NCBI GenBank assembly: GCA_039586895.1
Contig: JBDHJM010000007.1
Location: 11,263 to 75,262, forward strand
DNA length: 64,000 bases
From: Gemmatimonadota bacterium
Lineage (GTDB): Bacteria > Gemmatimonadota > Gemmatimonadetes > Gemmatimonadales > GWC2-71-9
Direction of reading: 5' to 3'
Part shown: positions 7,924-56,055 of the stretch, one piece after another
Layout of the letters: each line of letters opens with the position of its first letter
Position numbering within the stretch: position 1 is the first letter of the stretch
The notes under the pieces: generated by a model
What the model saw: the letters and a program-made list of their open reading frames with translations, nothing else
Databases searched by the model: none
Told to the model about the DNA's origin: nothing
Position numbers and translations under genes: made by a program

Positions 7924-8131
7924 CTACCGTGGCCGCGTAACCGGTCGCGGTCACCACCTCGGCCAGGCCGTCGGCCTGCACCTTGCCGTCGTCGAAGTCG
8001 ACCTCGGCCGTGCCGCCGTCGAGGTCCACGAACGCACTCCACACTCCCGGCGTGCCGGTGAGGGCCTTCTCGACCTTGGCGACGCAGTGCTCGCAGGTCA
8101 TGCCGGATACCTTCAGTCGAACCGATGCCAT
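7916..8131 (-). CDS. copZ: heavy-metal-associated (HMA) domain metallochaperone, CopZ-like
   Basis: Carries a GMTCEHC metal-binding motif in a 71-aa ferredoxin-like protein. Confidence 0.85.
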   Translation of the reverse strand: MASVRLKVSGMTCEHCVAKVEKALTGTPGVWSAFVDLDGGTAEVDFDDGKVQADGLAEVVTATGYAATVDA

Positions 8132-8249
8132 GTGCGTCTCGATGTTGGTGGTTTGTCCGGTAACAACAATCGGCGGTCCACGGTGCCCGGAAACGGATGC
8201 CCCGCCCCAGCTCCCCGCGAACCGCCTGCCATACTGCCCTGCCGAGCGG

Positions 8250-8540
8250 TTAGTACGCCCCGCGTACCTCGTGCTCGCCGTGAATCCGGCTGTGGATCAG
8301 GCCCAGGAACCGTTTGGCGAGCTTGTCCGCCTCGCTCTCTCCGACCTGATCGGTCTTCACGGTGATCAACGTGTAGTGCCCACCCTCGGCCTGGACGCGC
8401 ATGTCGATGCGGCCCACGCCGCCCGAGAAGGATCGGGTCTGGCCGTCCGACCCGACGGGCTCGAGGCGGCTGCTGAAGTAACGGTCCGCCTCGGCCAGCA
8501 CGTCGGCCGGTGGCAGCGATGTCCGGTGGAAGTAGCGCAT
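8250..8540 (-). CDS. hypothetical protein (96 aa) between copA and copZ
   Basis: Same strand, 3 nt downstream of the copA stop, with coding bias. No motif recognised. Confidence 0.45.
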   Translation of the reverse strand: MRYFHRTSLPPADVLAEADRYFSSRLEPVGSDGQTRSFSGGVGRIDMRVQAEGGHYTLITVKTDQVGESEADKLAKRFLGLIHSRIHGEHEVRGAY

Positions 8541-8543
8541 CGT

Positions 8544-11096
8544 CTATTTCGTGAGCGAAGGGGTGAACCGTCTCAGTCTGAGGCTGTTGCCGACCACGCT
8601 GAGACTGGAGAGCGCCATGGCCGCGCTCGCGACCACCGGACTCAGCAGCAGGCCGGTGAACGGGTAGAGCACACCGGCGGCCAGCGGGATCGCCAGCGTG
8701 TTGTAAACGAACGCAAGGAACAGGTTGGAGCGGATGGTGCGGTTGGTGCGCTGCGACAGCTCGATGGCCGCCACGACGCCCCGCAGGTCGTTGCGGATCA
8801 GCGTCACGTCGGAAGCCTCGACCGCCACGTCGGTGCCGGTGCCGATCGCGAAGCCGACGTCCGCCTCGGCGAGCGCGGGCGCGTCGTTGATGCCGTCACC
8901 CACCATCGCCGTCACGTGCCCCTCCTGCTGCAGGCGCTTGATCTCGTCGGCCTTGTCGCGCGGGTCCACGTCGGCCATGACCCGCTCGATGCCGACCTCG
9001 CGCGCCACGATGTTGGCCGTCTTCTTGTTGTCGCCGCTCAGCAGGTAGACCGTGAGCCCGCGCTTCTTGAGGCTGGCCACGGTCTCCTTTGCCTCCGGCT
9101 TGATCTCGTCGGTCACGACCAGCAGACCCTGCACGGTGTCGTTGACCACGACCACGATGGGCGTGCGGCCGGCCAGGATGTGATGGTCCACCGGCCGCGC
9201 CAGGGATCCCAGCTGGAGGCTCCGCTCCTGTGCGTGGCGCACGCTAATCACCTCGACCAGGAACTTGCCCACTATGCCGCGGGCGCCGCGTCCCTCCATG
9301 GCCACGAACCGCTCGCACTGGCCCACGGGCACGTTCTTGGCCTCGGCCTCCTCCACCACGGCCTGCGCCAGCGGGTGCTCGGAGCGCGACTCCACGGCGG
9401 CCGCCAGCCGCAGCACGTCGGCCGGGCCCACCTGTGACCCGTCCTTGCGCTTGGCACCCATCACGTGAGTGACGGTGGGCCGCCCCAGGGTGATCGTCCC
9501 GGTCTTGTCGAACACGACCGCGTCCACGTTCTGAATGCTCTCCAGGGCCTCTCCGCCGCGGATCAGTATCCCGTGCTCGGCACCGCGCCCCGTCCCCACC
9601 ATGATGGCCGTGGGCGTGGCGAGCCCCAGCGCGCACGGGCATGCGATCAGCAGCACCGTCACCAGGGCGACGGTGGAGAACACGACCACCGGCTCGGGGC
9701 CTGCCACCCACCACACCACGAACGCGGCAATGGCGACGGCGATCACGACGGGAACGAAGATCCCTGCCACGCGGTCGGCGAGCCGCTGCACCGGTGCCTT
9801 GGTGCCCTGCGCCTCCTCGACCAGGCGGACGATCTGGGCCAGCGCGGTGTCGGTTCCCACCGCCGTCGCGCGGAACGTGAACGAGCCCGTCGTGTTGACC
9901 GTCCCGCCGAACACCTCGTCGCCCGTCTGCTTGGCGACCGGCATGGGCTCGCCAGTGAGCATGGCCTCGCTGACGCTGGACTCCCCCTCGACTACGATGC
10001 CGTCGACCGGCAGGGTCTCGCCCGGCCGCACCAGAACCCTGTCGCCGACCTCGACCTCCTCGACGGGGATTTCCATGTCCTCGGTGCCGCGCTGCACCCG
10101 GGCCGTCCTGGGCCTGAGGCCCAGCAGCTTGCGGATGGCTTCCGACGTGCTCCCCTTGGCCCGCGCTTCCATGAGCCGGCCCAGCAGGATCAGCGCGATG
10201 ATGGCGTTCACGCCTTCGTAGTAGACGTCGGCGGGGAGGCCCGCTCCGGCGAACAGCCAGGGCAATACCGTGGCGGCGATCGAGTAGAGCAAAGCGGCGC
10301 CGGTGCCAAGCGCGATCAGCGTGTTCATGTCCGCGGTGCGGTGCTTCATCCCGCTCCACGCACCGCGGTAGAACTGCTGCCCGCTCCACAGCACGACGGG
10401 CAGGGTGATGGCCAGCAGCGCGAGCTTGAGCAGCTGGGGGCTCGCCGCGGCGAACTCGTACAGGCCGGGGAGCACCCCGCTGAGCATGTCACTCAACGGC
10501 TGCATCAGGCGGGAAACCAGGTCGTGCTCCCGTGCCTGGTGCCCCGCCATGAGCGGCATGGAGCCCACCATCGTGACGAGTGCGGCTACCGCCGCCAGCG
10601 CGAACTTGAACGACAGCCGCTTGACCTCCGCATTGCGGCGCAGGCGCTCCCGCTCGACCGGGTCCTCGGCGGCGACCGGCTCCGCGACCTTGAATCCCGC
10701 CAGCGCGACCGCACCCTCGAGGTCCCGCGCGGTCACGAGCCCCGGCACGTACTCCACGCGCACCTGTTCGGTGGCCTGGTTGGCCGACACGCTGAGCACG
10801 CCCCCCAGCCCGGCCAGCCCGTCCTCGAGCCGGCCCACACCTGAAGCGTAGTGCAGTCCTTCGATACCGAACGTCACTATGGCCTTGGCGCAGTCGTAGC
10901 CCACGTCCCGCACGGCCCGCACCAGGTCGGCCACCTTGGCCTGCGACTGGTCGAGCTGCACCGTGGCCTTGCCGGTGGCGTAGTTGACGTTGGCATCGAG
11001 CACGCCCTGCGCCTGCGAGAGCCGCTTCTGCACGGTGACGGCGCACGCCCCACAGGTCATTCCCTCCACGGGGAGGGTTATGCGCGTGCTAGCCAT
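8544..11096 (-). CDS. copA: copper-translocating P1B-type ATPase
   Basis: Has an N-terminal [11 protein letters not shown] domain (a second HMA-like domain follows), the CPC motif ([11 protein letters not shown]), DKTGT, the GDGINDAP hinge and TGE-type actuator region. Confidence 0.95.
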
Positions 11097-11520
11097 GCTT
11101 GGCGTGCCCCTTCCCCAGATTGGCGCGGGCTGCGTCGCGCCCGACCTCGGCCACCACGCGGCCCTTTAGCACCTTCTTGCCGCAGCGGAAGGGGTAGTCG
11201 CCGGGCTCCTTGGGGGTGAACTGGACCATCGTGGTCTGGAACGCCGGCAGCTCCTCGTCGATGCCGAGCCCCTCGAAGACCACCCGCTCCGAGCACTCCG
11301 CAGTCTCGTCGCGATAGAAGTAGAGGCGGACCGGGCGGCCCGCCTCCACTGAAATCGTCGCTGGATCGTACCCGTCCTTCACGCGAACACGGACTTCCTG
11401 CACCACACTCTTGCCCGGCGCCAGGCGCGCCGGTGCGCTACGCGACCCCAGAAAGAACCAGAGCTCTCCGGCGATCAGCAGGACGCCCAGTACGATGACG
11501 ACGTAGTCGGCGGGACTCAA
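11089..11520 (-). CDS. membrane-anchored cupredoxin-like domain protein
   Basis: An N-terminal TM helix is followed by a beta-rich domain ([23 protein letters not shown]...GDYPFRCG). This type is commonly found next to copA. The TTG start overlaps the MIPS stop (TTGA). Confidence 0.6.
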
Positions 11521-12848
11521 ACGTTCTCGTACTCGTAGTATTCCACGCCGAGATGGGTAATCTGCTCCTCACCCATCAGCCAGCGCAGGGTGTTCTTGAG
11601 CTTGGTCTGCTGAATGAAGAGGTCGTGCTCCGGAGCCAGTCCGGGTGCGGCCATCGGGCTCTTGAAGTAGAACGACATCCACTCCTGGATGCCCACCAGA
11701 CCAGCCCGCTGCGCCAGGTCCAGGAACAGCGCGAGGTCGAGCACGATGGGAGCGGCCAGGATCGAGTCCCGGCACAGAAAGTCGATCTTTATCTGCATCG
11801 GGTATCCCAGCCACCCGAAGATGTCGATGTTGTCCCAGCCCTCCTTGTTGTCACCACGGGGCGGGTAGTAGTTGATCCGCACCTTGTGGTAGATGTTGCC
11901 GTAGAGGTCCGGGTACATCGACGGCTGCAGGATGTGCTCCAGCACGCCGAGCTTGGACTCCTCCTTCGTCTTGAAGGACTCGGGATCGTCCAGCACCTCA
12001 CCGTCGCGGTTGCCCAGGATGTTGGTGGAGTACCAGCCCGCGAGCCCCAGCATGCGCGCCTTGAGCATCGGCGACAGCACGGTCTTCATGAGGGTTTGGC
12101 CCGTCTTGAAGTCCTTGCCGCAGATCGCCGCACCCTCCTGCTCGGCCAGCTCCTGAATGGCCGGCATATCGACTGTCAGGTTGGGCGCTCCGTTGGCGAA
12201 CGGCACCTTCTCCTTGAGGCTGGCCCAGGCGTATACCATCGAGGGAGCGACGGCCTCGTCGTTCGCGTCCATGGCCTGCTCCAGCGCCGCTACCGACTCG
12301 TGCTGCGGGCCCGGCTTCAGGAACACCTCCGTGGAGGCGCACCACACCATCACCAGGCGGTCGCACTTGTGCTGGGCCTTGAAGCCGCGGATGTCTTCCC
12401 GCAGCTGCTCCCCCAGGTCGCGCCAGTTCTTGCCCTTCTTGACGTTGATGCCCTCGAGCCGCTTCACGTAGCGCTGGTCGAACACCGCCGGCATCGGCTT
12501 GATGCCCTGCAGGAACTCCTTTATGGGCTCGATGTGGGGCGCGTCCAGCACGCCGGCCACCTTGGCAGACTCGTATGCGTCGTCCGGAATGGGATCCCAT
12601 GCGCCGAACACCATGTCGTCGAGCGATGCGAGCGGCACGAAGTCCTTGATCAGCGGAGACCGGTTCTCGGTCCGCTTGCCCAGGCGGATCGTGGCCATCT
12701 CGCCCAACGATCCGATCGCCTTGGCGTTGCCGCGCCGGACGTTCTCCACTCCGGCTACGAAGGTCGTCGCTACTGCACCCAGCCCCACGAGGAGCACGCC
12801 GAGCGTGCCCTCTGCTGGAGCGACTTCCTTCCGGTTCGTTTCCGTCAC
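11517..12848 (-). CDS. ino1: inositol-3-phosphate synthase (myo-inositol-1-phosphate synthase)
   Basis: A 443-aa protein with a GVLLVGLGAVATT Rossmann start and the conserved C-terminal half (NILGNRDG, SKLGVLE, and others). The GTG start overlaps the upstream stop (GTGA). Confidence 0.85.
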   Translation of the reverse strand: MTETNRKEVAPAEGTLGVLLVGLGAVATTFVAGVENVRRGNAKAIGSLGEMATIRLGKRTENRSPLIKDFVPLASLDDMVFGAWDPIPDDAYESAKVAGVLDAPHIEPIKEFLQGIKPMPAVFDQRYVKRLEGINVKKGKNWRDLGEQLREDIRGFKAQHKCDRLVMVWCASTEVFLKPGPQHESVAALEQAMDANDEAVAPSMVYAWASLKEKVPFANGAPNLTVDMPAIQELAEQEGAAICGKDFKTGQTLMKTVLSPMLKARMLGLAGWYSTNILGNRDGEVLDDPESFKTKEESKLGVLEHILQPSMYPDLYGNIYHKVRINYYPPRGDNKEGWDNIDIFGWLGYPMQIKIDFLCRDSILAAPIVLDLALFLDLAQRAGLVGIQEWMSFYFKSPMAAPGLAPEHDLFIQQTKLKNTLRWLMGEEQITHLGVEYYEYENV

Positions 12849-13540
12849 TGCGGTGTCCTTTCCTTGGCCGACATTTCAGCGAGCGGAGAGGCCCAACGCG
12901 CTTGCGTGGACCGCTTCCGGACTCGCGTGATCTTTCGGACGTGATGAATGCGCTGCCCCACGGTGATCACCGCGAGCAGAGCGAGCACAGCCGTGATGCC
13001 GAGTAGCATGAAGCCGTTGGGACCGGCCCCGAATATCATGGTCGGGAAGCCGAGACCCAGCACCCGCTCGGCGCGCTGAGCGATACCCACCCTGCACTCC
13101 AGCCCCAGCCCCTCCGCGCGGGCGCGGGCGTACGACACGATGAGTCCCGCGCCCAGGGCGGTGATGCCGACTGCGGCCGCAGCGATGCGCCATGCCTCCG
13201 GCACGCCGCCCGCCACGAAGAAGATCGTGATGCCGCCGAACAGCGCCGCGTCACCGACACGGTCGAGCGTGGAGTCGTAGAACGCCCCGAACTTGGTGGT
13301 GCCGCCGCTCTTGCGGGCCACGCGGCCGTCGAGCATGTCGAGCACGCCGCTGAGCAGCAGCAAGAACCCGCCCAGCCGCACGGCGCCCAGGCCGAAGGCG
13401 GCCGCCGACCCGACGAGGACCAGTGTCCCCACCGTGGTGATCGCGTTCGGAGAGGCCCCGACCGCCACCAGACCGTTGACGATTGGGGCCAGCATGGCCT
13501 CGTTGGCGCGGCGCAGCCAACCGGGTATCAGGGACGCCAT
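12845..13540 (-). CDS. CDP-alcohol phosphatidyltransferase (phosphatidylinositol-phosphate synthase-like)
   Basis: Carries the DG(x2)AR(x8)G(x3)D(x3)D motif as DGRVARKSGGTTKFGAFYDSTLDRVGD. The protein is polytopic. Confidence 0.85.
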   Translation of the reverse strand: MASLIPGWLRRANEAMLAPIVNGLVAVGASPNAITTVGTLVLVGSAAAFGLGAVRLGGFLLLLSGVLDMLDGRVARKSGGTTKFGAFYDSTLDRVGDAALFGGITIFFVAGGVPEAWRIAAAAVGITALGAGLIVSYARARAEGLGLECRVGIAQRAERVLGLGFPTMIFGAGPNGFMLLGITAVLALLAVITVGQRIHHVRKITRVRKRSTQARWASPLAEMSAKERTPQ

Positions 13541-13591
13541 TTCTGCTCGGGTTCGGTGAGCGGTAAGAATAATGGGGAAAGGCGGTTGCGG

Positions 13592-14797
13592 CTAGTACAC
13601 GAGGTACGCCTCACGCGCCTGCCGGAACCGGTCCAGCTCGTCCACCCAGGAGGCGATCACAGCCTCCGGATCGGCGCCCTCGCTTATCGCTTGCCACAGC
13701 CTGGAGCCGCCGGCCAGCCGTGCGAGCCGGGCCTCGCGCACGGTCAGTGAATCGCCGTGCAGGCCGTGGACGGCCGCCAGCAGGCGCACCGCGGCGGCCA
13801 CCGGATCGTACGCGTCACGGTCCGTCACGAGCAGCCGCACAGCCGGGATCTCGCGGTCCGGGTACTTGCCGTCGGGCGGCTGCTCGGGGCGCACCGTGGT
13901 GTCGCTCAGCAGCGCCCCCGGCACGGCTCCCACCGCGCGGACGACGCCCGGGGCGTCCAGCCAGGGAGCACCCAGCACCTGGAATGCCACCGCAGTGCCG
14001 CGCCCCACCGAGAGGTTGGTCGCCTCGAACAGCACGGTTCCCGGATAGTGGGTCGCGCTCTCGAGATCGGGCATGCTGGGCGACGGCCGCACCCAGGGCA
14101 CGCCTGTGTCGTCATACCAGCGATCGCGGGTCCATCCCGCGGCCGGCACCACGGTCAGCCGCGCCCCGATTGCCAGCCAGTCGTTGCCGAACAGCGCCAG
14201 CTCGCCCAGCGTCATGCCGTGCCGCAGAGCCACCGGCAGCATCCCCACGAACGATGAGTACGTGGTGTCGAGGACCGGGCCCTGCACGTGGACGCCGTCG
14301 ATCGGGTTGGGCCGGTCCAGCACGAGTACCTGCACTTCGTGGACGGCCGCCGCCTCCATGGTGCGCAGGGCGGTGGAGATGAATGTGTAGGGCCGCGCCC
14401 CCACGTCGTGGAGGTCCACCAGAATGACGTCCACCTCCTGCAGCATCTCCTCCGTGGGAGCCCGCACGTTGCCGTACAGAGAGAAGATGGACGTTCCGGT
14501 AGTCGTATCGATGCCGTGCGCGATGAGCTCCTCGTCCAGCACGCCGCGATACCCGTGCTCCGGAGCGAAAATCGCTGTAACTTCGACCTCGGCCTCGAGC
14601 AGGCGCTCGAGGTCGCTGACACCGTTGCGGTCACGGCCCGTCTGGTTGGTGAGGAGTCCGACGCGCCGCCCCGCGATCAGGTGCAGCGAGTCTTCGAGCA
14701 GCACTTCGATGCCGGGGCGGACGGCCCGGTCGGCCGGAGCCGGCGGCGTGCAGCCCGCGCAGACGAGCGCCAACCACCACACAATGGGTTTATGCAT
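13592..14797 (-). CDS. namZ: DUF1343/YbbC-family protein (exo-beta-N-acetylmuramidase NamZ-like), lipoprotein signal
   Basis: Has GLLTNQTGRD, FAPEHGY and a C-terminal DUF1343-like region. The signal peptide is MHKPIVWWLALVCAGC. Confidence 0.75.
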   Translation of the reverse strand: MHKPIVWWLALVCAGCTPPAPADRAVRPGIEVLLEDSLHLIAGRRVGLLTNQTGRDRNGVSDLERLLEAEVEVTAIFAPEHGYRGVLDEELIAHGIDTTTGTSIFSLYGNVRAPTEEMLQEVDVILVDLHDVGARPYTFISTALRTMEAAAVHEVQVLVLDRPNPIDGVHVQGPVLDTTYSSFVGMLPVALRHGMTLGELALFGNDWLAIGARLTVVPAAGWTRDRWYDDTGVPWVRPSPSMPDLESATHYPGTVLFEATNLSVGRGTAVAFQVLGAPWLDAPGVVRAVGAVPGALLSDTTVRPEQPPDGKYPDREIPAVRLLVTDRDAYDPVAAAVRLLAAVHGLHGDSLTVREARLARLAGGSRLWQAISEGADPEAVIASWVDELDRFRQAREAYLVY

Positions 14798-17665
14798 TAT
14801 CGCTCACTCACCGTAGCCAGCCTGCTCCTCGTCTTTGCCTGCAGCCGGGCAGCCGCGCCCGCAGCCGAGGCGCCGCCGGTCGCGCCGGATCCCTATGCAG
14901 TACTGCCGCCCGCCGAGGTGCACGGGGCGTCGCCTAAGATAAGCATCGACTCGCTGCTGGAAACGCTCACGGTGCGGGAGAAGGTGGGCCAGCTGGTGAT
15001 GCCGTGGCTGCTGGGCAACTACGCAGCGTTCGAGAGCGAGGAGTACGACACGCTGGCCGTGTGGGTGGATTCGCTGGGGGTGGGCGGGATCATCATCTCG
15101 CTGGGTCAGCCGTTCGAGGTGGCGGCCAAGCTCAATGCGCTGCAGCGGCGCGCACGGCTTCCCCTGCTGATCGCTGCCGACCTGGAGTGGGGCAGCGGCA
15201 TGCGCCTGGCCGGGGGCACGACCTTCCCGCACGCCATGGCGTTCGGGGCCACGGGGCGCGTCGAGGACGCGTACGACCTGGCCCGCGTGACCGCGGCAGA
15301 AGCTCGCGCGGTGGGGATCCACCTGACCTTCTCGCCGGTGGCTGACGTGAACAACAACCCCGGCAACCCGATCATCAACACGCGGTCCTTCGGGGAGGAC
15401 CCGTCTGCCGCGGCCGAACTGGTTGCGGCCTATGTGCGGGGCGCCCGCGAGCACGGTCTGTTCACGACCGCCAAGCACTTCCCGGGTCACGGCGACACCG
15501 ATACCGACTCCCACATCCGGCTTCCGGTGGTGCGGGCCTGCTGGGAGCGGCTCGACACGCTCGAGCTGGTGCCGTTCCGCTCCGCGATCGAGGCCGGGGT
15601 CACTGCGGTGATGACCGCGCACGTCGCCCTGCCCTGCCTCACCGGCGACGACGCTCCGGCCACGCTCTCGCCCCAGGTGATAACCGGGGTGCTGCGGGAC
15701 TCGCTGGACTTCAAAGGCCTCGCCGTCACCGACGCCCTCACCATGGGCGCCATCGTGGAGCGCTACGGCGCGGGCGAGAGCGCGGTGCTGGCGCTGCTCG
15801 CGGGCAGCGACATGGTGCTGATGCCCAACGACGCCCGGGCGGCGATCGAGGCCGTGGTGGCGGCCGTCGACTCGGGCAGGATAAGCGAGGCGCGGCTCGA
15901 CACCTCGGTGCGCCGCGTGCTCACGCTCAAGTACAGCGCCGGACTGTTCGCGCGGCGCACCGTCCGGCTGGACAGCGTGCCGACGGTGGTGGGAAGCGAG
16001 GACTTCAAGGCCATTGCCGACGACGTGGCCGCACGTTCCCTGACTCTGGTGCAGCCCGGACCGCTCGAGCGGTTCCGCGCTCGGCGCGGCCCACTGGCCG
16101 TCGTCACGTACGCCGAGGAGTCGAACCTGACCGTCGGCAACCGCATGATCCGCGAGCTCAGGCGCCTCGGGAACTCGGTCACTTCGTTCCGCCTCTACCC
16201 GGCCTCCGGCACCCTGTCGTACGACTCGGCCCGAGCGCTGATCGCGGAACATCAGGAGATCGTCTTCGCGGTGAGCGTCCGCTTCCTCGCTTGGCGCGGG
16301 CACGTTTCGCTGCCCGACTCGCTGGCGGCGCTGGTGCTCGCGACCGACAGCGTGCGGCCCACCGTGCTGGCTTCACTGGGGAGCCCCTATCTGCTGGCGC
16401 AGTTGCCCGGGTTCGGCGGCGCCTATCTCATCGCGTGGAGCGACGCCGCCGCCACGGAGCGCGCCGTCGCGCAGGCGCTGTCGGGCGGGGCCGCCATTAC
16501 CGGGCGCCTTCCCATCACGCTCTCGGAGGCCCATCCGGTCGGGTTCGGGGTCGAGGTCCCGCCGCAGCGGCGGCTCGACCTTGAGCGCCTCGCAGCAGTC
16601 ACGCTGTTCCTCGAGGAGAGGTCGGCCGAGGGCGCCTTTCCCGGCGGCGTGTTCGAGGTGGGCCACCGCGGAGTGGTGGCGTATCGCAGCCCGGTGGGTC
16701 ACTACGCGGAGGACGACCTGCGGCCCGTGAGCGATACGACCGTGTACGACCTGGCCAGCCTCACCAAGGTCATAGGGCTCACCACGGCGGGCATGCTGCT
16801 GGTGGCCGACGGCGCACTGGACCTGGACCGTCCGGTAGTGGACTACGTCCCGGGATTCAGCGGCGCGGGCAAGGAGTCGGTTCTGGTCCGGCACCTGCTC
16901 ACGCACACCTCGGGACTGCCAGCGTGGGAGCCGATTTACGATAGGGCGGCCTCGAAGGACGAGGCCGTGGCGATGGTGCTTGCCGCGGATCTCGTGTCGC
17001 CTCCCGGCGAGCGCTACCTGTACTCCGACCTGGGCGCGATCACCCTCACGCAGGTGGTCGAGGCCGTGGCCGGGGAGCCGCTGGACAGCTACCTCGAGCG
17101 CCGCGTGTTCGGGCCGCTCGCAATGGAGCGCACCCGGTTCCGGCCCCCCCGGGACTGGCTCGAGTTCATCGCCCCCACCGAGCACGATCCGTGGCGCGGC
17201 CGCCTGCTGCACGGCGAGGTGCACGACGAGAACGCCGCGCGTCTCGGCGGCGTGTCGGGCCACGCGGGGCTGTTCTCCAACGCGCCGGACATGGCGCGCT
17301 TCGCCCTCTGGCTGCTCGACGCCTGGCACGACCGGCTGCCGCCCGACGCAGACCCATACATTCCGGGCGAGATCGTGCGCGGCTTCACCCGGCTGCAGCC
17401 CGGCCCCGACGGCTCCACCCGCGCGCTGGGATGGGACACGCCCACTCCGTCCGGCGGCGGCTCGGCGGGGCACTTACTCTCTGCCACGGCCTTCGGCCAC
17501 ACCGGGTTCACGGGGACCAGCATCTGGATCGACCCCGAGCGCGAGCTGTTCATCTTGCTGCTGACCAACCGGGTGCACCCGACGCGCGAGAACCGCGCGA
17601 TCCTGAGGATTCGCGGCGATGTTGCGGACTCGGTGGTGGAGGCGCTGCTGCAGCCCCACGAGTAG
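14792..17665 (+). CDS. fusion protein: GH3 beta-N-acetylhexosaminidase (NagZ-like) + serine hydrolase/beta-lactamase-fold domain (AmiE-like)
   Basis: Starts with the signal MHYRSLTVASLLLVFAC. GH3 motifs are KHFPGHGDT and AVTDAL, and the C-terminal domain has SLTK (SxxK). I chose the ATG at 14792, not the ORF-track start at 14288. Confidence 0.85.
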   Translation: MHYRSLTVASLLLVFACSRAAAPAAEAPPVAPDPYAVLPPAEVHGASPKISIDSLLETLTVREKVGQLVMPWLLGNYAAFESEEYDTLAVWVDSLGVGGIIISLGQPFEVAAKLNALQRRARLPLLIAADLEWGSGMRLAGGTTFPHAMAFGATGRVEDAYDLARVTAAEARAVGIHLTFSPVADVNNNPGNPIINTRSFGEDPSAAAELVAAYVRGAREHGLFTTAKHFPGHGDTDTDSHIRLPVVRACWERLDTLELVPFRSAIEAGVTAVMTAHVALPCLTGDDAPATLSPQVITGVLRDSLDFKGLAVTDALTMGAIVERYGAGESAVLALLAGSDMVLMPNDARAAIEAVVAAVDSGRISEARLDTSVRRVLTLKYSAGLFARRTVRLDSVPTVVGSEDFKAIADDVAARSLTLVQPGPLERFRARRGPLAVVTYAEESNLTVGNRMIRELRRLGNSVTSFRLYPASGTLSYDSARALIAEHQEIVFAVSVRFLAWRGHVSLPDSLAALVLATDSVRPTVLASLGSPYLLAQLPGFGGAYLIAWSDAAATERAVAQALSGGAAITGRLPITLSEAHPVGFGVEVPPQRRLDLERLAAVTLFLEERSAEGAFPGGVFEVGHRGVVAYRSPVGHYAEDDLRPVSDTTVYDLASLTKVIGLTTAGMLLVADGALDLDRPVVDYVPGFSGAGKESVLVRHLLTHTSGLPAWEPIYDRAASKDEAVAMVLAADLVSPPGERYLYSDLGAITLTQVVEAVAGEPLDSYLERRVFGPLAMERTRFRPPRDWLEFIAPTEHDPWRGRLLHGEVHDENAARLGGVSGHAGLFSNAPDMARFALWLLDAWHDRLPPDADPYIPGEIVRGFTRLQPGPDGSTRALGWDTPTPSGGGSAGHLLSATAFGHTGFTGTSIWIDPERELFILLLTNRVHPTRENRAILRIRGDVADSVVEALLQPHE

Positions 17666-51882: not shown

Positions 51883-53085
51883 GTGGACATACACACGCTG
51901 CAGCAGGTCGCGCTGTTCGATAAGTGCAAGAACTTCACGACCGCGCGCGAAATTCAGGCCGCCGGCCTGTACCCCTACTTCAAGCCCATATCACAGGCGG
52001 AAGACACCGTCGTGGTGATCGAGGGTGAGAAGAAGGTGATGATGGGCTCGAACAACTATCTGAGCCTCACTCACCACCCGAAGGTGCTCGAGTCCGCCAA
52101 GCTGGCCCTCGAGCGGTACGGATCGGGCTGCACCGGCAGCCGGTTCCTCAACGGCACCCTGGACCTCCACGAGCAGCTCGAGTGCCGCCTGGCAGAGTTC
52201 TTCGGCAAGGAAGCTGCCCTCGTCTTCTCCACCGGCTACTCCGCCAACCTGGGCCTGATCTCCGGGCTGGTGGGGCGCGGCGACGTGGTCCTTATCGACA
52301 AGCTGGATCACGCCTCGATCGTCGACGGCGCCAAGATGGCCTACGGCGAGACGGTGCGCTTCGGACACGGCAACCTGGAGCAGCTCGAGCGCATGCTGCA
52401 GAAGCACAGCAAGCGCGGCATGATGATCATCGTAGACGGCGTGTACTCGATGGAGGGGGACATCGCCGACGTGCCGAACCTGCTCAAGCTGGCGCAGCGC
52501 TACGGAGCGGCACTCGCCATCGACGACGCACACGCCGTGGGCGTGCTGGGACCCCGGGGCGACGGCACGGCGGCGCACTTCGGGCTGGCCGACGAGGTCG
52601 ACATCGTGGTGGGCACGTTCTCAAAGTCGCTGGCGTCGATCGGCGGGTTTGTGGCGGGCTCCGACACCGTCATTCATTATCTGAAGCATCACAGCCGGCC
52701 GCTCATCTTCACCGCGGCCCTGCCGCCGGCCAACACCGCAGGCGTGCTTGCGGCCCTCGAGATCATGATCGCGGAGCCGGAGCGGCGCGACCAGCTGTGG
52801 CAGAACACCAAGCGATTCCAGGAAGGTGTGCGCAGCCTCGGGTTCGACATCGGTCCCACCGAGACGCCCATCGTGCCGGTGCTGATCGGCACGCTGCACA
52901 ACACGTTCGCATTCTGGCGCAAACTGTTCGACGCCGGCGTGTTCACGAACCCGGTGGTGCCGCCTGCGGTGCCGGCCGACGAGTGCCGCCTGCGCGCCAG
53001 CCTGATGGCCACGCACACAGCGGATCAGATAGACTTCGCCCTGGACACGTTCCAGCGGCTCGGACGGGAGATGGGGGTCATTTGA
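51883..53085 (+). CDS. spt: alpha-oxoamine synthase, serine palmitoyltransferase-like
   Basis: Similar along its whole length, by eye, to Sphingomonas SPT: GSGCTGSRFLNGT, FSTGYSANLG, HASIVDG, the PLP lysine in VVGTFSKS, RPLIFTAALPP and the C-terminal GVI. The N-terminal YPYFKPI is typical of SPTs. Confidence 0.75.
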   Translation: MDIHTLQQVALFDKCKNFTTAREIQAAGLYPYFKPISQAEDTVVVIEGEKKVMMGSNNYLSLTHHPKVLESAKLALERYGSGCTGSRFLNGTLDLHEQLECRLAEFFGKEAALVFSTGYSANLGLISGLVGRGDVVLIDKLDHASIVDGAKMAYGETVRFGHGNLEQLERMLQKHSKRGMMIIVDGVYSMEGDIADVPNLLKLAQRYGAALAIDDAHAVGVLGPRGDGTAAHFGLADEVDIVVGTFSKSLASIGGFVAGSDTVIHYLKHHSRPLIFTAALPPANTAGVLAALEIMIAEPERRDQLWQNTKRFQEGVRSLGFDIGPTETPIVPVLIGTLHNTFAFWRKLFDAGVFTNPVVPPAVPADECRLRASLMATHTADQIDFALDTFQRLGREMGVI

Positions 53086-54209
53086 CGGTGACGGTGGTCG
53101 TGCGGCCGGTTGAGACGGCCCGCGACCTCGAGCGCTTCATCGCATTTCCATATCGACTTCACCGGGGGGACCCCATGTGGGTCCCCCTGTTGCGCATGGA
53201 CGTGCGGACGATGCTGTCGCGCGAGAAGAACCCCTTCTTCCAGCACGCGGAAGCCCAGTACTTCGTGGCCGAGCGGGGCAGCGGGCGTCGCAGCGTCGTG
53301 GGCCGCATCGCGGCCATCCATAACCACGGGCACAACGAATTCCACGGGGACCGTGTCGGCTTCTTCGGGTTCTTCGAGTGCGAGAACGACCAGGCCGTGG
53401 CCGACGCCCTGTTCGAGGCAGCCGCCGAGTGGCTCAAGGAGCGGGGCCTCGACACGATGCGCGGGCCGGCTTCGTTTTCCACCAACGACGAATGCGGGCT
53501 GACCGTGGAAGGGTTCGACACGCCGCCCACGATCATGAACCCGCACAACCCTCCCTACTACATAGATCTCGTAGAGCGTGCCGGCTTCACCAAGGCGATG
53601 GACATGCACCAGTTCCGCACGGTGAGCAACCAGCTCCCCGACCGGCTGGTGCGCGGGGCCAAGCTGATCAAGAAGCGCCAGGGCATCACGCTGCGCACGC
53701 TGGACGTGAAGCGGTTCTACGAGGAAGTGGACCGCATCAAACCGATGTACAACGCCGCGTGGGAGAAGAACTGGGGCTTCGTGCCGATGACCGAGGCGGA
53801 AATCGACCACATGGCGAAGCAGCTGAAGCCGGTCGTGGTGCCCGATCTCGTGGTCTTCGCCGAAAAAGACGGCGAGACAATCGGATTCGCGCTGGCGCTG
53901 CCGGACCTGAACGTGGCGCTCAGGAAGAACCCGTCGGGAAGGCTGTTTCCGGGCATCCTCAAGGTCCTGTGGGCGGCCCGCAAGGTCACCCGCATGCGGA
54001 TAGTCGCCCTGGGTGTGCTCGAGCAGCACCGCAACACAGGAGCTGACGCCGTGCTGTACCACTGGATCTGGGACCGCGGCTACCAGATCGGATACCGCTG
54101 GGCGGAGGCCGGGTGGATACTCGAGGACAACGCGCCGATGGCCAACGCCCTGGTCCGCATGGGCTTCGAGGCGTACAAGACACTGCGGCTGTACGACCGA
54201 CGACTGTGA
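53082..54209 (+). CDS. GNAT-fold N-acyltransferase-like protein (candidate bacterial ceramide synthase)
   Basis: A protein of about 375 aa. The TTG start overlaps the spt stop (TTGA), and a GTG lies 2 codons later. The fold assignment comes from family recollection (FGFFEC..., WAEAGWILEDN) and the function from gene context. Confidence 0.55.
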   Translation: MTVTVVVRPVETARDLERFIAFPYRLHRGDPMWVPLLRMDVRTMLSREKNPFFQHAEAQYFVAERGSGRRSVVGRIAAIHNHGHNEFHGDRVGFFGFFECENDQAVADALFEAAAEWLKERGLDTMRGPASFSTNDECGLTVEGFDTPPTIMNPHNPPYYIDLVERAGFTKAMDMHQFRTVSNQLPDRLVRGAKLIKKRQGITLRTLDVKRFYEEVDRIKPMYNAAWEKNWGFVPMTEAEIDHMAKQLKPVVVPDLVVFAEKDGETIGFALALPDLNVALRKNPSGRLFPGILKVLWAARKVTRMRIVALGVLEQHRNTGADAVLYHWIWDRGYQIGYRWAEAGWILEDNAPMANALVRMGFEAYKTLRLYDRRL

Positions 54210-55204
54210 GAGCCTTCGTCACGGGCGCGACCGGCTTCGTAGGGTCACACCTCGTCGACACACTCATCGAACAGGGCCATCAGGCCGTGTGCCTGGTCCG
54301 CAATCCCGCCAAAGCCAAGCGCCTGTTCCCCGACCGCGCACCCGAGACCGTGAGCGGAGACCTCTCCGACGAAGGTGCGATGCGGGAGGGCATCGACGGC
54401 GCCGACGTGGTATTTCACATAGCCGGCGTCACGTCCGCCCGCACCCGCGCGGACTTCTTCACCATAAACACCGAAGCCACACGCCGCGTGCTGCGCGCGG
54501 CACAGGCCGCAGCACCCGGCCTCAAGCGCTTCGTGTACGTGAGCAGCCTCTCCGCGGCCGGCCCCACACAGCGCGGCGGGATGCTGACCGAGACGGACCC
54601 GCCCGCACCTGTGAGCGCGTACGGCCGCAGCAAACTCGCGGCCGAGGAGGCGGTACGGGAAGGACCGCTGCCCTGGACGATCCTGCGGCCGCCGGCCGTG
54701 TACGGCCCGCGCGACGTGGAGCTGCGCAGGGTTTTCACCTTCGCACGCTGGGGCATCGCGCCTGTGTTCGGCGACGGCGGACAGGAGCTCACGATGATCC
54801 ACGTGGACGACCTCGTTGCGGCTCTGCTGGCTGCGGCGGGTTCCGACCACACCGCCGGCGGAGTCTACTTCGCCACACACCCCGAGGTCGTCACGGCGAA
54901 GCAGTTCCTGGAGCGGGTGCACCAGACGGTGCGGGAGGTCCAGGGAAGGTCCGCCCGGGCGCCCACCGAGCTTCCCGTACCGCACTGGCTGGTTCGTGGC
55001 TTCCTCGCGGCCAGCTGGGCCAGCGCCCGGCTCACCGGACGGGCCACGGTGCTGTCGCCCGACAAGGCCGACGAGTTCCTGGCTCCTTCATGGGCCTGCT
55101 CGCCCGCGGCGCTGGAGCGGGATACCGGCTGGCGGGCCCGGATCGCGCTCACGGAGGGACTGGAGCAGACCGCCCGCTGGTACCGGGACCAGGGATACCT
55201 ATGA
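54206..55204 (+). CDS. NAD(P)-dependent epimerase/dehydratase-family (extended SDR) protein, candidate ceramide reductase CerR
   Basis: VTGATGFVGSHLV (GxxGxxG) and YGRSKLAAE (YxxxK). The GTG overlaps the upstream stop (GTGA). Confidence 0.7.
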   Translation: MRAFVTGATGFVGSHLVDTLIEQGHQAVCLVRNPAKAKRLFPDRAPETVSGDLSDEGAMREGIDGADVVFHIAGVTSARTRADFFTINTEATRRVLRAAQAAAPGLKRFVYVSSLSAAGPTQRGGMLTETDPPAPVSAYGRSKLAAEEAVREGPLPWTILRPPAVYGPRDVELRRVFTFARWGIAPVFGDGGQELTMIHVDDLVAALLAAAGSDHTAGGVYFATHPEVVTAKQFLERVHQTVREVQGRSARAPTELPVPHWLVRGFLAASWASARLTGRATVLSPDKADEFLAPSWACSPAALERDTGWRARIALTEGLEQTARWYRDQGYL

Positions 55205-56055
55205 GCCGGCTCGACGCGCTGAACCCCGTCGACAAGCTGATCGCCGTCTATCTCGCCTTCGTGACTCTGATGGCGGTGGTCAACCTGGGGCTGGGCGACA
55301 GCTACTTCTGGTGGATTCTCCTGTCGCACGTGCTGATCGGCGTCCTGCTGTACCTGTTCACGCTCCTCACGCCGCGGCAGCGGGCGGGGCAGGTCCTGCA
55401 CGACCTGTACCCGCTCATCCTCATCCCCGCGCTCTACACCGAGCTGGCGTTTCTCAATGTGGGGCTGGGACTGGACACGGTGTTTGCGCACGATGCGATC
55501 GTACAGGGCTGGGAGGAGGCTCTGTTCGGCGAGCAGATATCCTACACATGGATCCGGAACCACCCGTCGGTGTTCTGGTCGGGTCTGCTGCACGTCGCCT
55601 ACGTCACCTACTATCCGATCGTCTACCTCGGCCCGATCCTGCTGCTGGCACGGGGCAAGAGACAGGGCGCACGCAACGTGCTGTTCGCCACGATGGTGGC
55701 CTACCTTATCTGCTACACCGTCTTCATCGTGTTCCCGGTTGCCGGCCCCAACTGGGTGTTCGATCACCCGACCGGCCCGGTGCGCGACGTGTGGAGCGCG
55801 CGCATGGTGTACGGCCTGCTCGGCACCGGCTCGTCGGTCGGCACGGCGTTCCCGTCCTCGCACGTGGCGGCCACGTTTGCAGCGGTGTTCGCCAACTGGA
55901 GGGAGTGGCGCACGCTGGCGGTGATCTTCCTCGTGCCGGCGTCGTTCATGGCGGTGGCCACGGTGTACTGCCAGATGCACTACGCGGTGGACGCCCTGGT
56001 GGGGTTGGCGCTCGCGGTCGCGGTCGCGCTGGCCACACGGCGCGTGCAGGCCTAG
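55201..56055 (+). CDS. PAP2-superfamily polytopic membrane protein, IPC-synthase/sphingomyelin-synthase-like
   Basis: About 7 TM helices. FPSSHV and MHYAVDAL match the H...H-x3-D catalytic pattern of AUR1/SMS-type PAP2 enzymes. The ATG overlaps the upstream stop (ATGA). Confidence 0.6.
   Translation: MSRLDALNPVDKLIAVYLAFVTLMAVVNLGLGDSYFWWILLSHVLIGVLLYLFTLLTPRQRAGQVLHDLYPLILIPALYTELAFLNVGLGLDTVFAHDAIVQGWEEALFGEQISYTWIRNHPSVFWSGLLHVAYVTYYPIVYLGPILLLARGKRQGARNVLFATMVAYLICYTVFIVFPVAGPNWVFDHPTGPVRDVWSARMVYGLLGTGSSVGTAFPSSHVAATFAAVFANWREWRTLAVIFLVPASFMAVATVYCQMHYAVDALVGLALAVAVALATRRVQA

What the first reader, a model, noticed from the sequence alone, without database searches (positions are those of the whole stretch)
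11517..13540. Inositol-3-phosphate synthase coupled to a CDP-alcohol phosphatidyltransferase: predicted bacterial inositol phospholipid synthesis
The two genes overlap by 4 nt (GTGA). The pairing of MIPS with a CDP-alcohol phosphatidyltransferase is the core of the phosphatidylinositol-phosphate route. That route is known in Actinobacteria, Archaea and Bacteroidetes. Inositol lipids are uncommon in bacteria, and here the pair sits in the same window as a ceramide operon (see 51883..56055).
Basis: partly seen in the sequence, partly recalled or inferred. Interest (0 to 1): 0.55.

Follow-up and report, generated by a model that had tools for sequence, protein, structure and literature searches.

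The report
Gemmatimonadota inositol phospholipid gene pair
Two overlapping genes in this soil-phylum (Gemmatimonadota) genome encode the enzyme that makes inositol phosphate and a membrane enzyme of the type that attaches it to a lipid. The pair is kept across the phylum, so these bacteria very probably make inositol lipids, which nobody seems to have reported for them.

Summary
On the minus strand, a 231-aa CDP-alcohol phosphatidyltransferase (12845..13540) ends inside the GTG start of a 443-aa inositol-3-phosphate synthase, MIPS (11517..12848), giving a GTGA overlap.

- The transferase has the full catalytic motif and the arginines that bind the phosphate of inositol phosphate in solved PIP synthases.
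- Its best solved relatives are the Renibacterium and Mycobacterium PIP synthases. It scores about 147 bits against PIP/AIP synthase models and about 26 against PgsA/PssA.
- In a tree it sits with sequences that pass NCBI's PIP synthase cut-off, far from the genome's own PgsA and Pss paralogues.
- The MIPS is the Bacteroides BT_1526 type (E 2e-167).

The genome is a Gemmatimonadota MAG. In 201 genomes of the phylum, the transferase occurs in 196 and this MIPS type in 174. The two genes are adjacent in the same order in every pair I compared on one contig but one, and are lost together.

I found no DIP or mycothiol genes. No PgpA or classic PAP2 phosphatase was found, so the PIP phosphatase is unidentified.

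The ceramide operon 40 kb away ends in an AUR1-like transferase by fold, so inositol phosphorylceramide is plausible but unproven.

This is a known pathway in a phylum where it has not been described.

The parts
12845..13540 (-). PIP-synthase-type CDP-alcohol phosphatidyltransferase, 231 aa (P0001). It is the first gene of the cassette.
   Evidence: PF01066. NCBIfam PIPSynth 147.3 bits and AIP synthase 146.8 bits. The D68-x2-D71-G72-x2-A75-R76-x8-G85-x3-D89-x3-D93 motif, R156-x2-R159 and R197 are invariant in 28 Gemmatimonadota homologues. Best PDB relatives are 5d92, 6wm5 and 6h53.
11517..12848 (-). myo-Inositol-3-phosphate synthase (MIPS), 443 aa (P0002). Its GTG start overlaps the transferase stop (GTGA).
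   Evidence: PF07994 323.8 bits and PF01658 115.4 bits. E 2.1e-167 to the solved Bacteroides thetaiotaomicron MIPS 7nwr over residues 6-432. Single copy in the genome.
8250..8540 (-). Conserved 96-aa soluble protein of unknown function (P0394). It lies directly after MIPS in relatives that lack the copper insertion. It is a possible third member of the unit; its function was not established.
   Evidence: Homologues at 40-71% identity in 13 loci of families f1-f3, same strand. They start about 2.0-2.4 kb after the transferase start (right after MIPS) where cupredoxin-copA is absent. Found elsewhere in the genome in f4-f7. No Pfam family. The fold match to KA1/BamC-N-like domains is weak.
8544..11520 (-). 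Cupredoxin-like membrane protein (11089..11520) and CopA copper P-type ATPase (8544..11096). They sit between MIPS and the 96-aa gene. I do not count them as part of the inositol pathway.
   Evidence: Pfam and NCBIfam hits. Present in only 6-7 of 20 related loci. A TTGA overlap joins the MIPS stop to the cupredoxin start.
51883..53085 (+). Serine palmitoyltransferase, the first gene of the ceramide operon.
   Evidence: NF047600 529.7 bits (cut-off 640) and PF00155.
53088..54209 (+). Bacterial ceramide synthase-like GNAT acyltransferase.
   Evidence: Open frame and GTG at 53088. Weak GNAT match. Conserved in 131 of 201 genomes, next to the other operon genes.
54206..55204 (+). CerR-like NAD-dependent reductase. 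GTGA overlap with the preceding gene.
   Evidence: PF01370 132 bits. GTG at 54206 followed by the FVTGA Rossmann start.
55201..56055 (+). AUR1-like PAP2_3 phosphotransferase, 284 aa. ATGA overlap with cerR. Candidate inositol phosphorylceramide synthase, and the proposed consumer of PI.
   Evidence: PF14378 67 bits. PSSH and HYAVD motifs are invariant, and there is no KxxxxxxRP box. Best profile hit in the PDB is AUR1, E 0.024. The predicted fold is closest to the AUR1 structures 9vj4_A (E 1.5e-5, TM 0.62) and 9ivc_A.

Best explanation
The two genes form a translationally coupled cassette for de novo inositol glycerophospholipid synthesis. MIPS cyclises glucose 6-phosphate to L-myo-inositol-1-phosphate (also written D-myo-inositol-3-phosphate). 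The membrane transferase then moves the phosphatidyl group from CDP-diacylglycerol, made by the genome's CdsA, onto that inositol phosphate, giving phosphatidylinositol phosphate (PIP). A phosphatase that is not of the PgpA type and is still unidentified would remove the phosphate to give phosphatidylinositol (PI). What is shown: the identity of both enzymes by sequence, motif, solved relatives and phylogeny, and the conservation and co-loss of the pair. What is inferred: the actual lipid products, the dephosphorylation step, and the further step in this genome's family. In that step the AUR1-like enzyme at the end of the spt-bcerS-cerR operon would transfer phosphoinositol from PI to ceramide, giving inositol phosphorylceramide.
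For: Transferase:
- The CDP-alcohol motif is complete.
- The two arginines that bind the phosphate of inositol phosphate, and that are specific to PIP synthases (R153/R191 in Renibacterium, R155/R195 in M. tuberculosis; PMC4634129), align to R156/R159 and R197. They are invariant in 28 homologues.
- PDB ranking: PIP synthases E 1e-28 to 9e-23, AF2299 1e-8, DIPP synthase 2.5e-6, PS synthase 8e-4.
- NCBIfam: 147 bits for PIP/AIP synthase against about 26 for PgsA/PssA.
- Tree: it shares a clade (SH-aLRT 96) with sequences scoring 216-243 bits on the PIP synthase model, whose cut-off is 170.
- The genome has separate PssA and PgsA-like genes and a CdsA.

MIPS:
- E 2e-167 to the biochemically characterised BT_1526 (PMC9246714).

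Pair:
- The transferase is present in 196 of 201 genomes of the phylum and this MIPS type in 174 of 201.
- The families without this MIPS type carry a short-type MIPS instead.
- The pair is adjacent and co-oriented in 20 of 20 fetched loci.
- All five genomes without the transferase also lack MIPS.
- In families f4-f7 the pair sits among housekeeping genes (prfA, prmC, tmk, obg), as expected for a core function.

Alternative fates of inositol:
- No IPCT/DIPP synthase and no MshA reach their cut-offs.

IPC step:
- The AUR1-like fold and motifs of the operon's last gene.
- Genome G043 keeps the ceramide synthase but lacks MIPS, the transferase and the PAP2_3 gene.
Against: - The transferase scores below NCBI's equivalog cut-offs (147.3 against 170, and 146.8 against 180), so curators' thresholds do not name it.
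- No PIP phosphatase was found. PgpA is absent, and the only PAP2-superfamily genes are the two PAP2_3 genes. The genome is 91% complete.
- Species descriptions of cultured Gemmatimonadota that I could read list PE, DPG, PG and an aminolipid as major polar lipids and do not mention PI (PMC7844134, PMC11651109). If inositol lipids are made, they may be minor or unrecognised.
- For the IPC step: genome G027 has the PAP2_3 gene next to the ceramide synthase but no MIPS of either type. The PAP2_3 gene is rare in families f2 and f7, which still keep the inositol pair. The fold cannot tell which head-group donor is used.
Confidence: 0.78

Rival explanations
1. Inositol phosphate feeds only soluble products, such as di-myo-inositol phosphate, mycothiol-like thiols or free inositol as an osmolyte. 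The transferase would then be a DIPP-synthase-like enzyme acting on CDP-inositol.
For: The transferase gives a weak match to the DIPP synthase half of NF041135 (48.7 bits). The genome has one IMPase-family gene that could release free inositol. PI is not listed among the major lipids of cultured relatives.
Against: No gene reaches the IPCT/DIPP synthase cut-off (best 47.7 against 580), and only a generic nucleotidyltransferase match exists. The best MshA match is 107 bits against a cut-off of 462. The solved DIPP synthase is a 22-orders-of-magnitude weaker match than the PIP synthases. The PIP-synthase-specific arginines are conserved.
Confidence: 0.05
2. The enzyme is a PIP-synthase relative with a shifted substrate. 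It might use a different lipid donor, or a different phosphorylated polyol as acceptor, so the product would be an inositol-like lipid that is neither PIP nor PI.
For: Scores fall below both equivalog cut-offs and are equal for the bacterial and archaeal models. The Gemmatimonadota sequences split into two parts of the tree. The proteins carry a basic C-terminal tail of about 30 residues that the solved PIP synthases lack.
Against: The tight, phylum-wide coupling to MIPS points to inositol phosphate as the acceptor. The phosphate-binding arginines are kept. CdsA is present. The f2 homologue scores 168.4 against the cut-off of 170.
Confidence: 0.1
3. PI is made but is mainly an intermediate. 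It would serve as the phosphoinositol donor for inositol phosphorylceramide, or as a membrane anchor for glycoconjugates as in mycobacterial PIMs, and would not be a bulk membrane lipid. This adds to the main explanation and does not exclude it.
For: An AUR1-like gene closes the ceramide operon. PI is not reported as a major lipid in cultured relatives. In B. thetaiotaomicron, PI feeds PI-dihydroceramide through the AUR1 homologue BT_1522.
Against: Families f2 and f7 keep the inositol pair but mostly lack the PAP2_3 gene (3 of 38 and 1 of 23) and the ceramide synthase (5 of 38 and 6 of 23). IPC therefore cannot be the only use. I did not search for PimA-type mannosyltransferases.
Confidence: 0.35

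Closest known systems
Actinobacterial PIP synthase (M. tuberculosis PgsA1, Renibacterium salmoninarum PIPS; PDB 6h53, 6h59, 5d91, 5d92) with Ino1
   Same: Same enzyme class and predicted reaction. The catalytic motif is complete and the phosphate-binding arginine pair is conserved. These are the closest solved relatives, and the window's protein shares a tree clade with sequences that pass the PIP synthase model. The PIP phosphatase was also described as unidentified for these bacteria in 2015 (PMC4634129).
   Different: About 40% identity or less to members of that clade, and below the equivalog cut-off. The MIPS partner here is the long Bacteroides/eukaryote-like type, closer to 7nwr (E 2e-167) than to the short archaeal type (1u1i, E 1.6e-45). 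Here the two genes are fused into one overlapping cassette.
Bacteroides thetaiotaomicron inositol lipid cluster BT_1522 (AUR1-like PI-DHC synthase), BT_1523 (PIPS), BT_1525 (PgpA-like PIP phosphatase), BT_1526 (MIPS) (PMC9246714)
   Same: The MIPS is of the same type as BT_1526 (E 2e-167). A PIPS-type transferase and an AUR1-like PAP2_3 enzyme are both present in the genome. The predicted end products are the same: PI and inositol phosphorylceramide.
   Different: No PgpA-type phosphatase is present. The transferase matches the BT_1523 model at only 107 bits against a cut-off of 350. The AUR1-like gene is not beside the inositol genes. It closes a Caulobacter-type spt-bcerS-cerR operon 40 kb away.
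Archaeal archaetidylinositol phosphate synthase (NF040950)
   Same: The HMM score equals that for bacterial PIPS (146.8 bits), and the acceptor is the same.
   Different: The archaeal enzyme uses CDP-archaeol. This bacterium has CdsA and ordinary PssA/PgsA-type genes, and nothing suggests ether isoprenoid lipids.
Yeast AUR1 inositol phosphorylceramide synthase (PDB 9vj3, 9vj4, 9ivc), for the linked PAP2_3 gene
   Same: Pfam PAP2_3, the PSxH and HYxxD catalytic motifs, and the best fold match.
   Different: 18% identity. No Kei1-like subunit is known here. The sequence-profile match is marginal (E 0.024). Donor specificity is untested.

Membership tests
PIP synthase (class I CDP-alcohol phosphotransferase acting on CDP-DAG and inositol-1-phosphate) | Signature D-x2-D-G-x2-A-R ... 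G-x3-D-x3-D | tested here: met
   D68, D71, G72, A75, R76, G85, D89 and D93 are present and invariant in 28 homologues.
PIP synthase (class I CDP-alcohol phosphotransferase acting on CDP-DAG and inositol-1-phosphate) | Two arginines that bind the phosphate of inositol phosphate (Rs R153/R191, Mt R155/R195). They are conserved in PIP synthases and absent from eukaryotic PI synthases. | tested here: met
   The RxxR motif (R156, R159) and R197 align to ERSER and QR of 5d92 and to ERPER and GQR of 6wm5. They are invariant in alignment A1. Their role is taken from PMC4634129.
PIP synthase (class I CDP-alcohol phosphotransferase acting on CDP-DAG and inositol-1-phosphate) | Score above NCBIfam equivalog NF045883 cut-off (170 bits) | tested here: not met
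   147.3 bits. The f2 homologue reaches 168.4 bits.
PIP synthase (class I CDP-alcohol phosphotransferase acting on CDP-DAG and inositol-1-phosphate) | Groups in a tree with accepted PIP synthases and apart from PgsA/Pss | tested here: met
   It lies in a 35-row clade (SH-aLRT 96) that holds a 13-row clade whose sampled members score 216-243 bits on NF045883. The genome's own PgsA-like and PssA genes are long outgroup branches. This was a quick tree with no bootstraps.
PIP synthase (class I CDP-alcohol phosphotransferase acting on CDP-DAG and inositol-1-phosphate) | Enzyme forms PIP from CDP-DAG and L-myo-inositol-1-phosphate | not testable with these tools
   Needs an enzyme assay or lipidomics.
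myo-Inositol-3-phosphate synthase | Pfam NAD_binding_5 and Inos-1-P_synth domains over their cut-offs, and full-length similarity to a characterised enzyme | tested here: met
   323.8 and 115.4 bits. E 2.1e-167 to 7nwr (BT_1526) over residues 6-432.
Bacteroides-type inositol lipid cluster (BT_1522/23/25/26) | PgpA-family PIP phosphatase (BT_1525 type) | tested here: not met
   PF04608 was not found in the genome, which is 91% complete. The control rang in B. thetaiotaomicron.
Bacteroides-type inositol lipid cluster (BT_1522/23/25/26) | AUR1-like PI-ceramide synthase encoded beside the inositol genes | tested here: not met
   An AUR1-like gene exists, but it lies 40 kb away at the end of the ceramide operon.
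IPCT/DIPP synthase (soluble di-myo-inositol phosphate route) | Inositol-1-phosphate cytidylyltransferase domain and DIPP synthase over the NF041135 cut-off | tested here: not met
   Best 47.7 bits against a cut-off of 580.
PgsA / PssA | Score over TIGR00560 or TIGR00473 cut-off | tested here: not met
   27.2 and 25.5 bits against cut-offs of 109 and 107. A separate gene passes the PssA cut-off, and two other genes are PgsA-like (87.9 and 62.8 bits, below the 109.1 cut-off).
AUR1-type IPC synthase (for gene 55201..56055) | PAP2_3 domain, catalytic His-His-Asp (PSxH ... HYxxD), and an AUR1-like fold | tested here: met
   PF14378 67.4 bits. H221, H260 and D264 are invariant. Foldseek best hits are 9vj4_A (E 1.5e-5, TM 0.62) and 9ivc_A.
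AUR1-type IPC synthase (for gene 55201..56055) | Uses phosphatidylinositol as head-group donor | not testable with these tools
   The phyletic pattern is mixed: G043 supports it and G027 contradicts it.

The most novel reading that the evidence does not exclude
Gemmatimonadota, one of the commonest soil phyla, make inositol lipids as a phylum-wide core trait. Its largest sampled family (f1, to which this genome belongs) goes on to make eukaryote-like inositol phosphorylceramide through an AUR1-type synthase built into a bacterial ceramide operon. The PIP phosphatase would be of a kind not yet known, since the genome has neither PgpA nor a classic PAP2 phosphatase. The conserved 96-aa protein that follows MIPS in families f1-f3 could be a new accessory factor of the pathway.
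Probability: 0.35. Interest if true: 0.62.

Novelty: new member of a known kind. Interest (0 to 1): 0.45.

Why it matters
Inositol lipids are regarded as rare in bacteria. They are known mainly from Actinobacteria, some Bacteroidota, spirochaetes and myxobacteria (PMC9246714). Here the gene pair is close to universal in a whole environmental phylum and sits among housekeeping genes. This extends the known range of the pathway and makes a simple prediction for cultured Gemmatimonas strains, whose published polar lipid lists do not mention PI.

The phylum also offers a clean comparative system. Two MIPS types serve the same kind of transferase. Some lineages have lost the pair, and some have or lack an AUR1-like ceramide head-group transferase.

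The missing PIP phosphatase is an open question in Actinobacteria as well, so a phylum without PgpA or PgpB is a useful place to look for it.

The enzymes themselves are ordinary, so the interest is moderate.

Tried and rejected
- PgsA/Pss identity of the transferase: rejected.
- DIP and mycothiol routes: rejected, as no gene reaches the cut-offs.
- A PIP phosphatase next to the pair: none found. Neighbours are NamZ and an unknown 499-aa protein upstream, with cupredoxin, CopA and PDH genes downstream in f1-f3, and prfA, prmC, a YlbF-like gene, tmk, ctpA and obg in f4-f7.
- PgpA and classic PAP2 phosphatases in the genome: none.
- My first reading, that families f10-f12 have the transferase without MIPS, was wrong. 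The protein query and PF07994 miss their short-type MIPS, which PF01658 finds.
- Sequence search of the PAP2_3 protein against the PDB found nothing. Only the profile and the fold search reached AUR1.
No named reference genomes could therefore be added to the tree, and clades were labelled by NCBIfam scores instead.
- The 96-aa protein has no Pfam family and only weak fold matches. I give it no function.
- Promoter and terminator scans of 8000-15000 were no better than shuffles.
Full report
**The observation**

The window holds two minus-strand ORFs at the stated coordinates: 12845..13540 (231 aa) and 11517..12848 (443 aa). The plus strand reads TCAC at 12845-12848. On the coding strand this is GTGA, so the TGA stop of the first gene overlaps the GTG start of the second. 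GTG is the only possible start before the NAD-binding glycine motif of the second protein, and a purine-rich AAGGAAAGGA stretch precedes it. Pfam assigns PF01066 (CDP-alcohol phosphatidyltransferase) to the first gene, and PF07994 plus PF01658 (myo-inositol-1-phosphate synthase) to the second at 324 and 115 bits.

**The organism**

The window lies on a 96-kb contig of a 3.24-Mb assembly with 67.7% G+C, 130 contigs and 91% completeness. The few named close homologues of the transferase carry the names Gemmatimonadales or Gemmatimonadota.

**The transferase**

- Its sequence carries the full class I signature, D68-x2-D71-G72-x2-A75-R76-x8-G85-x3-D89-x3-D93.
- NCBIfam gives 147.3 bits to the PIP synthase model, 146.8 to archaetidylinositol phosphate synthase and 107.4 to the BT_1523 model. 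It gives only 27.2 to PgsA and 25.5 to PssA. All the inositol models stay below their equivalog cut-offs.
- Against the PDB, the best relatives are the Renibacterium PIP synthase (E 1.3e-28) and the Mycobacterium PIP synthases (E about 1e-23). AF2299 (1e-8), the DIPP synthase (2.5e-6) and PS synthases (about 1e-3) are far behind.
- Clarke et al. showed that two arginines bind the phosphate of inositol phosphate. They are conserved in all PIP synthases, absent from eukaryotic PI synthases, and needed for activity (PMC4634129). In the printed alignments they correspond to the RxxR motif R156/R159 and to R197 of the window's protein. All three are invariant in 28 Gemmatimonadota homologues.
- The genome has four other CDP-alcohol transferase genes. 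One passes the PssA cut-off, two are PgsA/ClsA-like and one is unassigned.
- I built a maximum-likelihood tree of 96 sequences: 68 from the exhaustive search of 1.84 billion proteins (the window's own protein among them), 24 Gemmatimonadota loci and the four paralogues. The window's protein lies in a clade of 35 (SH-aLRT 96). That clade also contains a 13-member clade whose sampled members score 216-243 bits on the PIP synthase model. The paralogues are long outgroup branches.

**The synthase**

P0002 matches the solved and biochemically characterised B. thetaiotaomicron MIPS (BT_1526, 7nwr) at E 2.1e-167 over nearly its whole length. Eukaryotic (E about 1e-52) and archaeal (E about 1e-45) enzymes are more distant. 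It is single-copy in the genome.

**Conservation**

- In a sample of 201 genomes of the phylum, the transferase is found in 196 and this MIPS type in 174.
- The 19 genomes of families f10-f12 lack this MIPS type. All five that I tested carry a short-type MIPS found with PF01658, on the same contig as the transferase in three of them (2-23 kb away). Their transferases keep the motif and the arginines.
- All five genomes without the transferase also lack MIPS. Three of them (G043, G088, G132) have no MIPS of either type; G189 was checked only with the long-type query. The fifth, G097, is flagged as unpublished.
- In 20 of 20 loci fetched from seven families, the two genes are adjacent, co-oriented, and ordered transferase first. 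The place tables show the same in every genome where both matches lie on one contig, except G007, where about 1.6 kb separates them.
- No other neighbour is conserved across the class. In f1-f3 the pair lies between namZ plus an unknown 499-aa gene and pyruvate dehydrogenase genes. In f4-f7 it lies within prfA, prmC, a YlbF-like gene, tmk, ctpA and obg.
- The tallies include three or four genomes flagged as unpublished (G057, G157, G182, G097). No separate claim rests on them.

**Other fates of inositol, and missing steps**

CdsA is present, and so is one IMPase-family gene. No IPCT/DIPP synthase and no MshA reach their cut-offs, so I found no route to di-myo-inositol phosphate or mycothiol. 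The PgpA family, which supplies the PIP phosphatase in Bacteroides, is absent. The only PAP2-superfamily genes are two PAP2_3 genes. The dephosphorylation of PIP to PI is therefore inferred, and its enzyme is unknown. It was also described as unidentified for bacterial PI synthesis in 2015.

**The ceramide operon**

| Gene | Coordinates | Junction with the gene before |
|---|---|---|
| spt | 51883..53085 | first gene |
| GNAT-type ceramide synthase-like gene | 53088..54209 | 2-nt gap |
| cerR-like reductase | 54206..55204 | GTGA overlap |
| PAP2_3 gene | 55201..56055 | ATGA overlap |

These assignments rest.

- The PAP2_3 protein has invariant PSSH and HYAVD motifs and no KxxxxxxRP box.
- Its profile finds yeast AUR1 as the best PDB hit, but weakly (E 0.024).
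- Its predicted structure (pLDDT 82) is closest to two AUR1 structures (E 1.5e-5 and 8e-5, TM 0.62 and 0.57). PAP2 phosphatases score E above 0.01, and the sphingomyelin synthase-related protein scores E 0.25.
- The PAP2_3 gene occurs in 112 of 201 genomes: 89 of 96 in family f1, but 3 of 38 in f2 and 1 of 23 in f7. The ceramide synthase occurs in 131 of 201.
- In many f1 genomes the operon lies 20-80 kb from the inositol pair on the same contig. This is conserved synteny, not an operon.
- Genome G043 lacks MIPS, the transferase and the PAP2_3 gene but keeps the ceramide synthase. That fits a PI-dependent role. Genome G027 has the PAP2_3 gene and no MIPS, which does not fit.
- I rate inositol phosphorylceramide as plausible, at roughly even odds, and not shown.
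- An earlier follow-up in this scan reached the same reading of that operon.

**The 96-aa gene and the copper genes**

Notes from other windows pointed to a 96-aa ORF after MIPS. Here it lies at 8250..8540, after copA. Homologues at 40-71% identity follow MIPS directly in loci without copA, and follow copA where the cupredoxin-copA pair is present. The copper genes are therefore an insertion between MIPS and this gene. The MIPS stop overlaps the cupredoxin start (TTGA). In f4-f7 the 96-aa gene lies elsewhere in the genome. It has no Pfam family. Its confident model (pLDDT 88) resembles KA1, AMPK C-terminal and BamC N-terminal domains only weakly. I give it no function.

**Literature**

Heaver et al. 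describe the Bacteroides pathway and list the bacteria known to make inositol lipids. Gemmatimonadota are not among them, and their survey covered Bacteroidota, Chlorobium and a few Proteobacteria. Full-text searches that combined Gemmatimonad* with inositol lipid or sphingolipid terms found nothing relevant. Descriptions of Gemmatimonas groenlandica and Gaopeijia list PE, DPG, PG and an aminolipid as major polar lipids, with no PI. The library holds only open-access papers, so an earlier report cannot be excluded.

**Verdict**

This is a real, well-supported PIP synthase and MIPS cassette: a known pathway in a phylum where it has not been described, and there it is a core trait. Products remain predictions. 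The score is moderate.

Noticed in passing
window 8250..8540 (-): A conserved 96-aa soluble protein (motifs MRYFHR, EGGHYT, GESExDK, and a C-terminal RGAY). It follows MIPS directly in f1-f2 relatives that lack copA, and follows copA here. It appears to be a Gemmatimonadota-only family with no Pfam match. The predicted fold is weakly KA1/BamC-N-like.
   Followed up: partly
window 8544..11520 (-): A membrane-anchored cupredoxin-like gene and copA lie between MIPS and the 96-aa gene. TTGA (MIPS/cupredoxin) and 8-nt (cupredoxin/copA) overlaps would put copper efflux on the same transcript as the inositol genes. The insertion is present in only 6-7 of 20 related loci.
   Followed up: partly
loci L050-L054 (G006, G003, G011, G022, G002): Families f10-f12 of the phylum use a short (about 380-400 aa) MIPS type where the class containing this genome uses the long Bacteroides-like type. 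A protein query with the long type and Pfam PF07994 both miss the short type. One pathway is thus served by two MIPS lineages within one phylum.
   Followed up: partly
G000:C102:54126-54941 (L007:1183-2073 +): A second PAP2_3 paralogue, 34% identical to the operon copy, overlaps by 4 nt an M1-peptidase-like gene. A weak endonuclease/exonuclease/phosphatase-family gene lies downstream on the other strand. Many f1 genomes have 2-3 such paralogues. It could be a phosphatase or a second head-group transferase.
   Followed up: no
whole genome G000: No PgpA family gene and no PAP2 gene other than the two PAP2_3 genes were found. The phosphatidylglycerophosphate phosphatase of this organism is therefore also unassigned.
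   Followed up: partly
window 14804..16303 (-): A 499-aa protein with no Pfam or NCBIfam match lies upstream of namZ. It is conserved in 11 of 20 related loci of families f1-f3.
   Followed up: no
G027:C83:38290-40400: In this f4 genome a shorter PAP2_3 match lies directly after the ceramide synthase gene, and the genome has no MIPS of either type. This suggests that some members of this PAP2_3 family use a head-group donor other than PI.
   Followed up: partly
G000:C23:48895-49392 (L005:1315-2097 -): A fifth CDP-alcohol transferase paralogue (260 aa, motif DSLDGTLARVRKAERPKYGYYIDHVVD) has only a weak AIP synthase match (50.9 bits). Its substrate is unknown.
   Followed up: no
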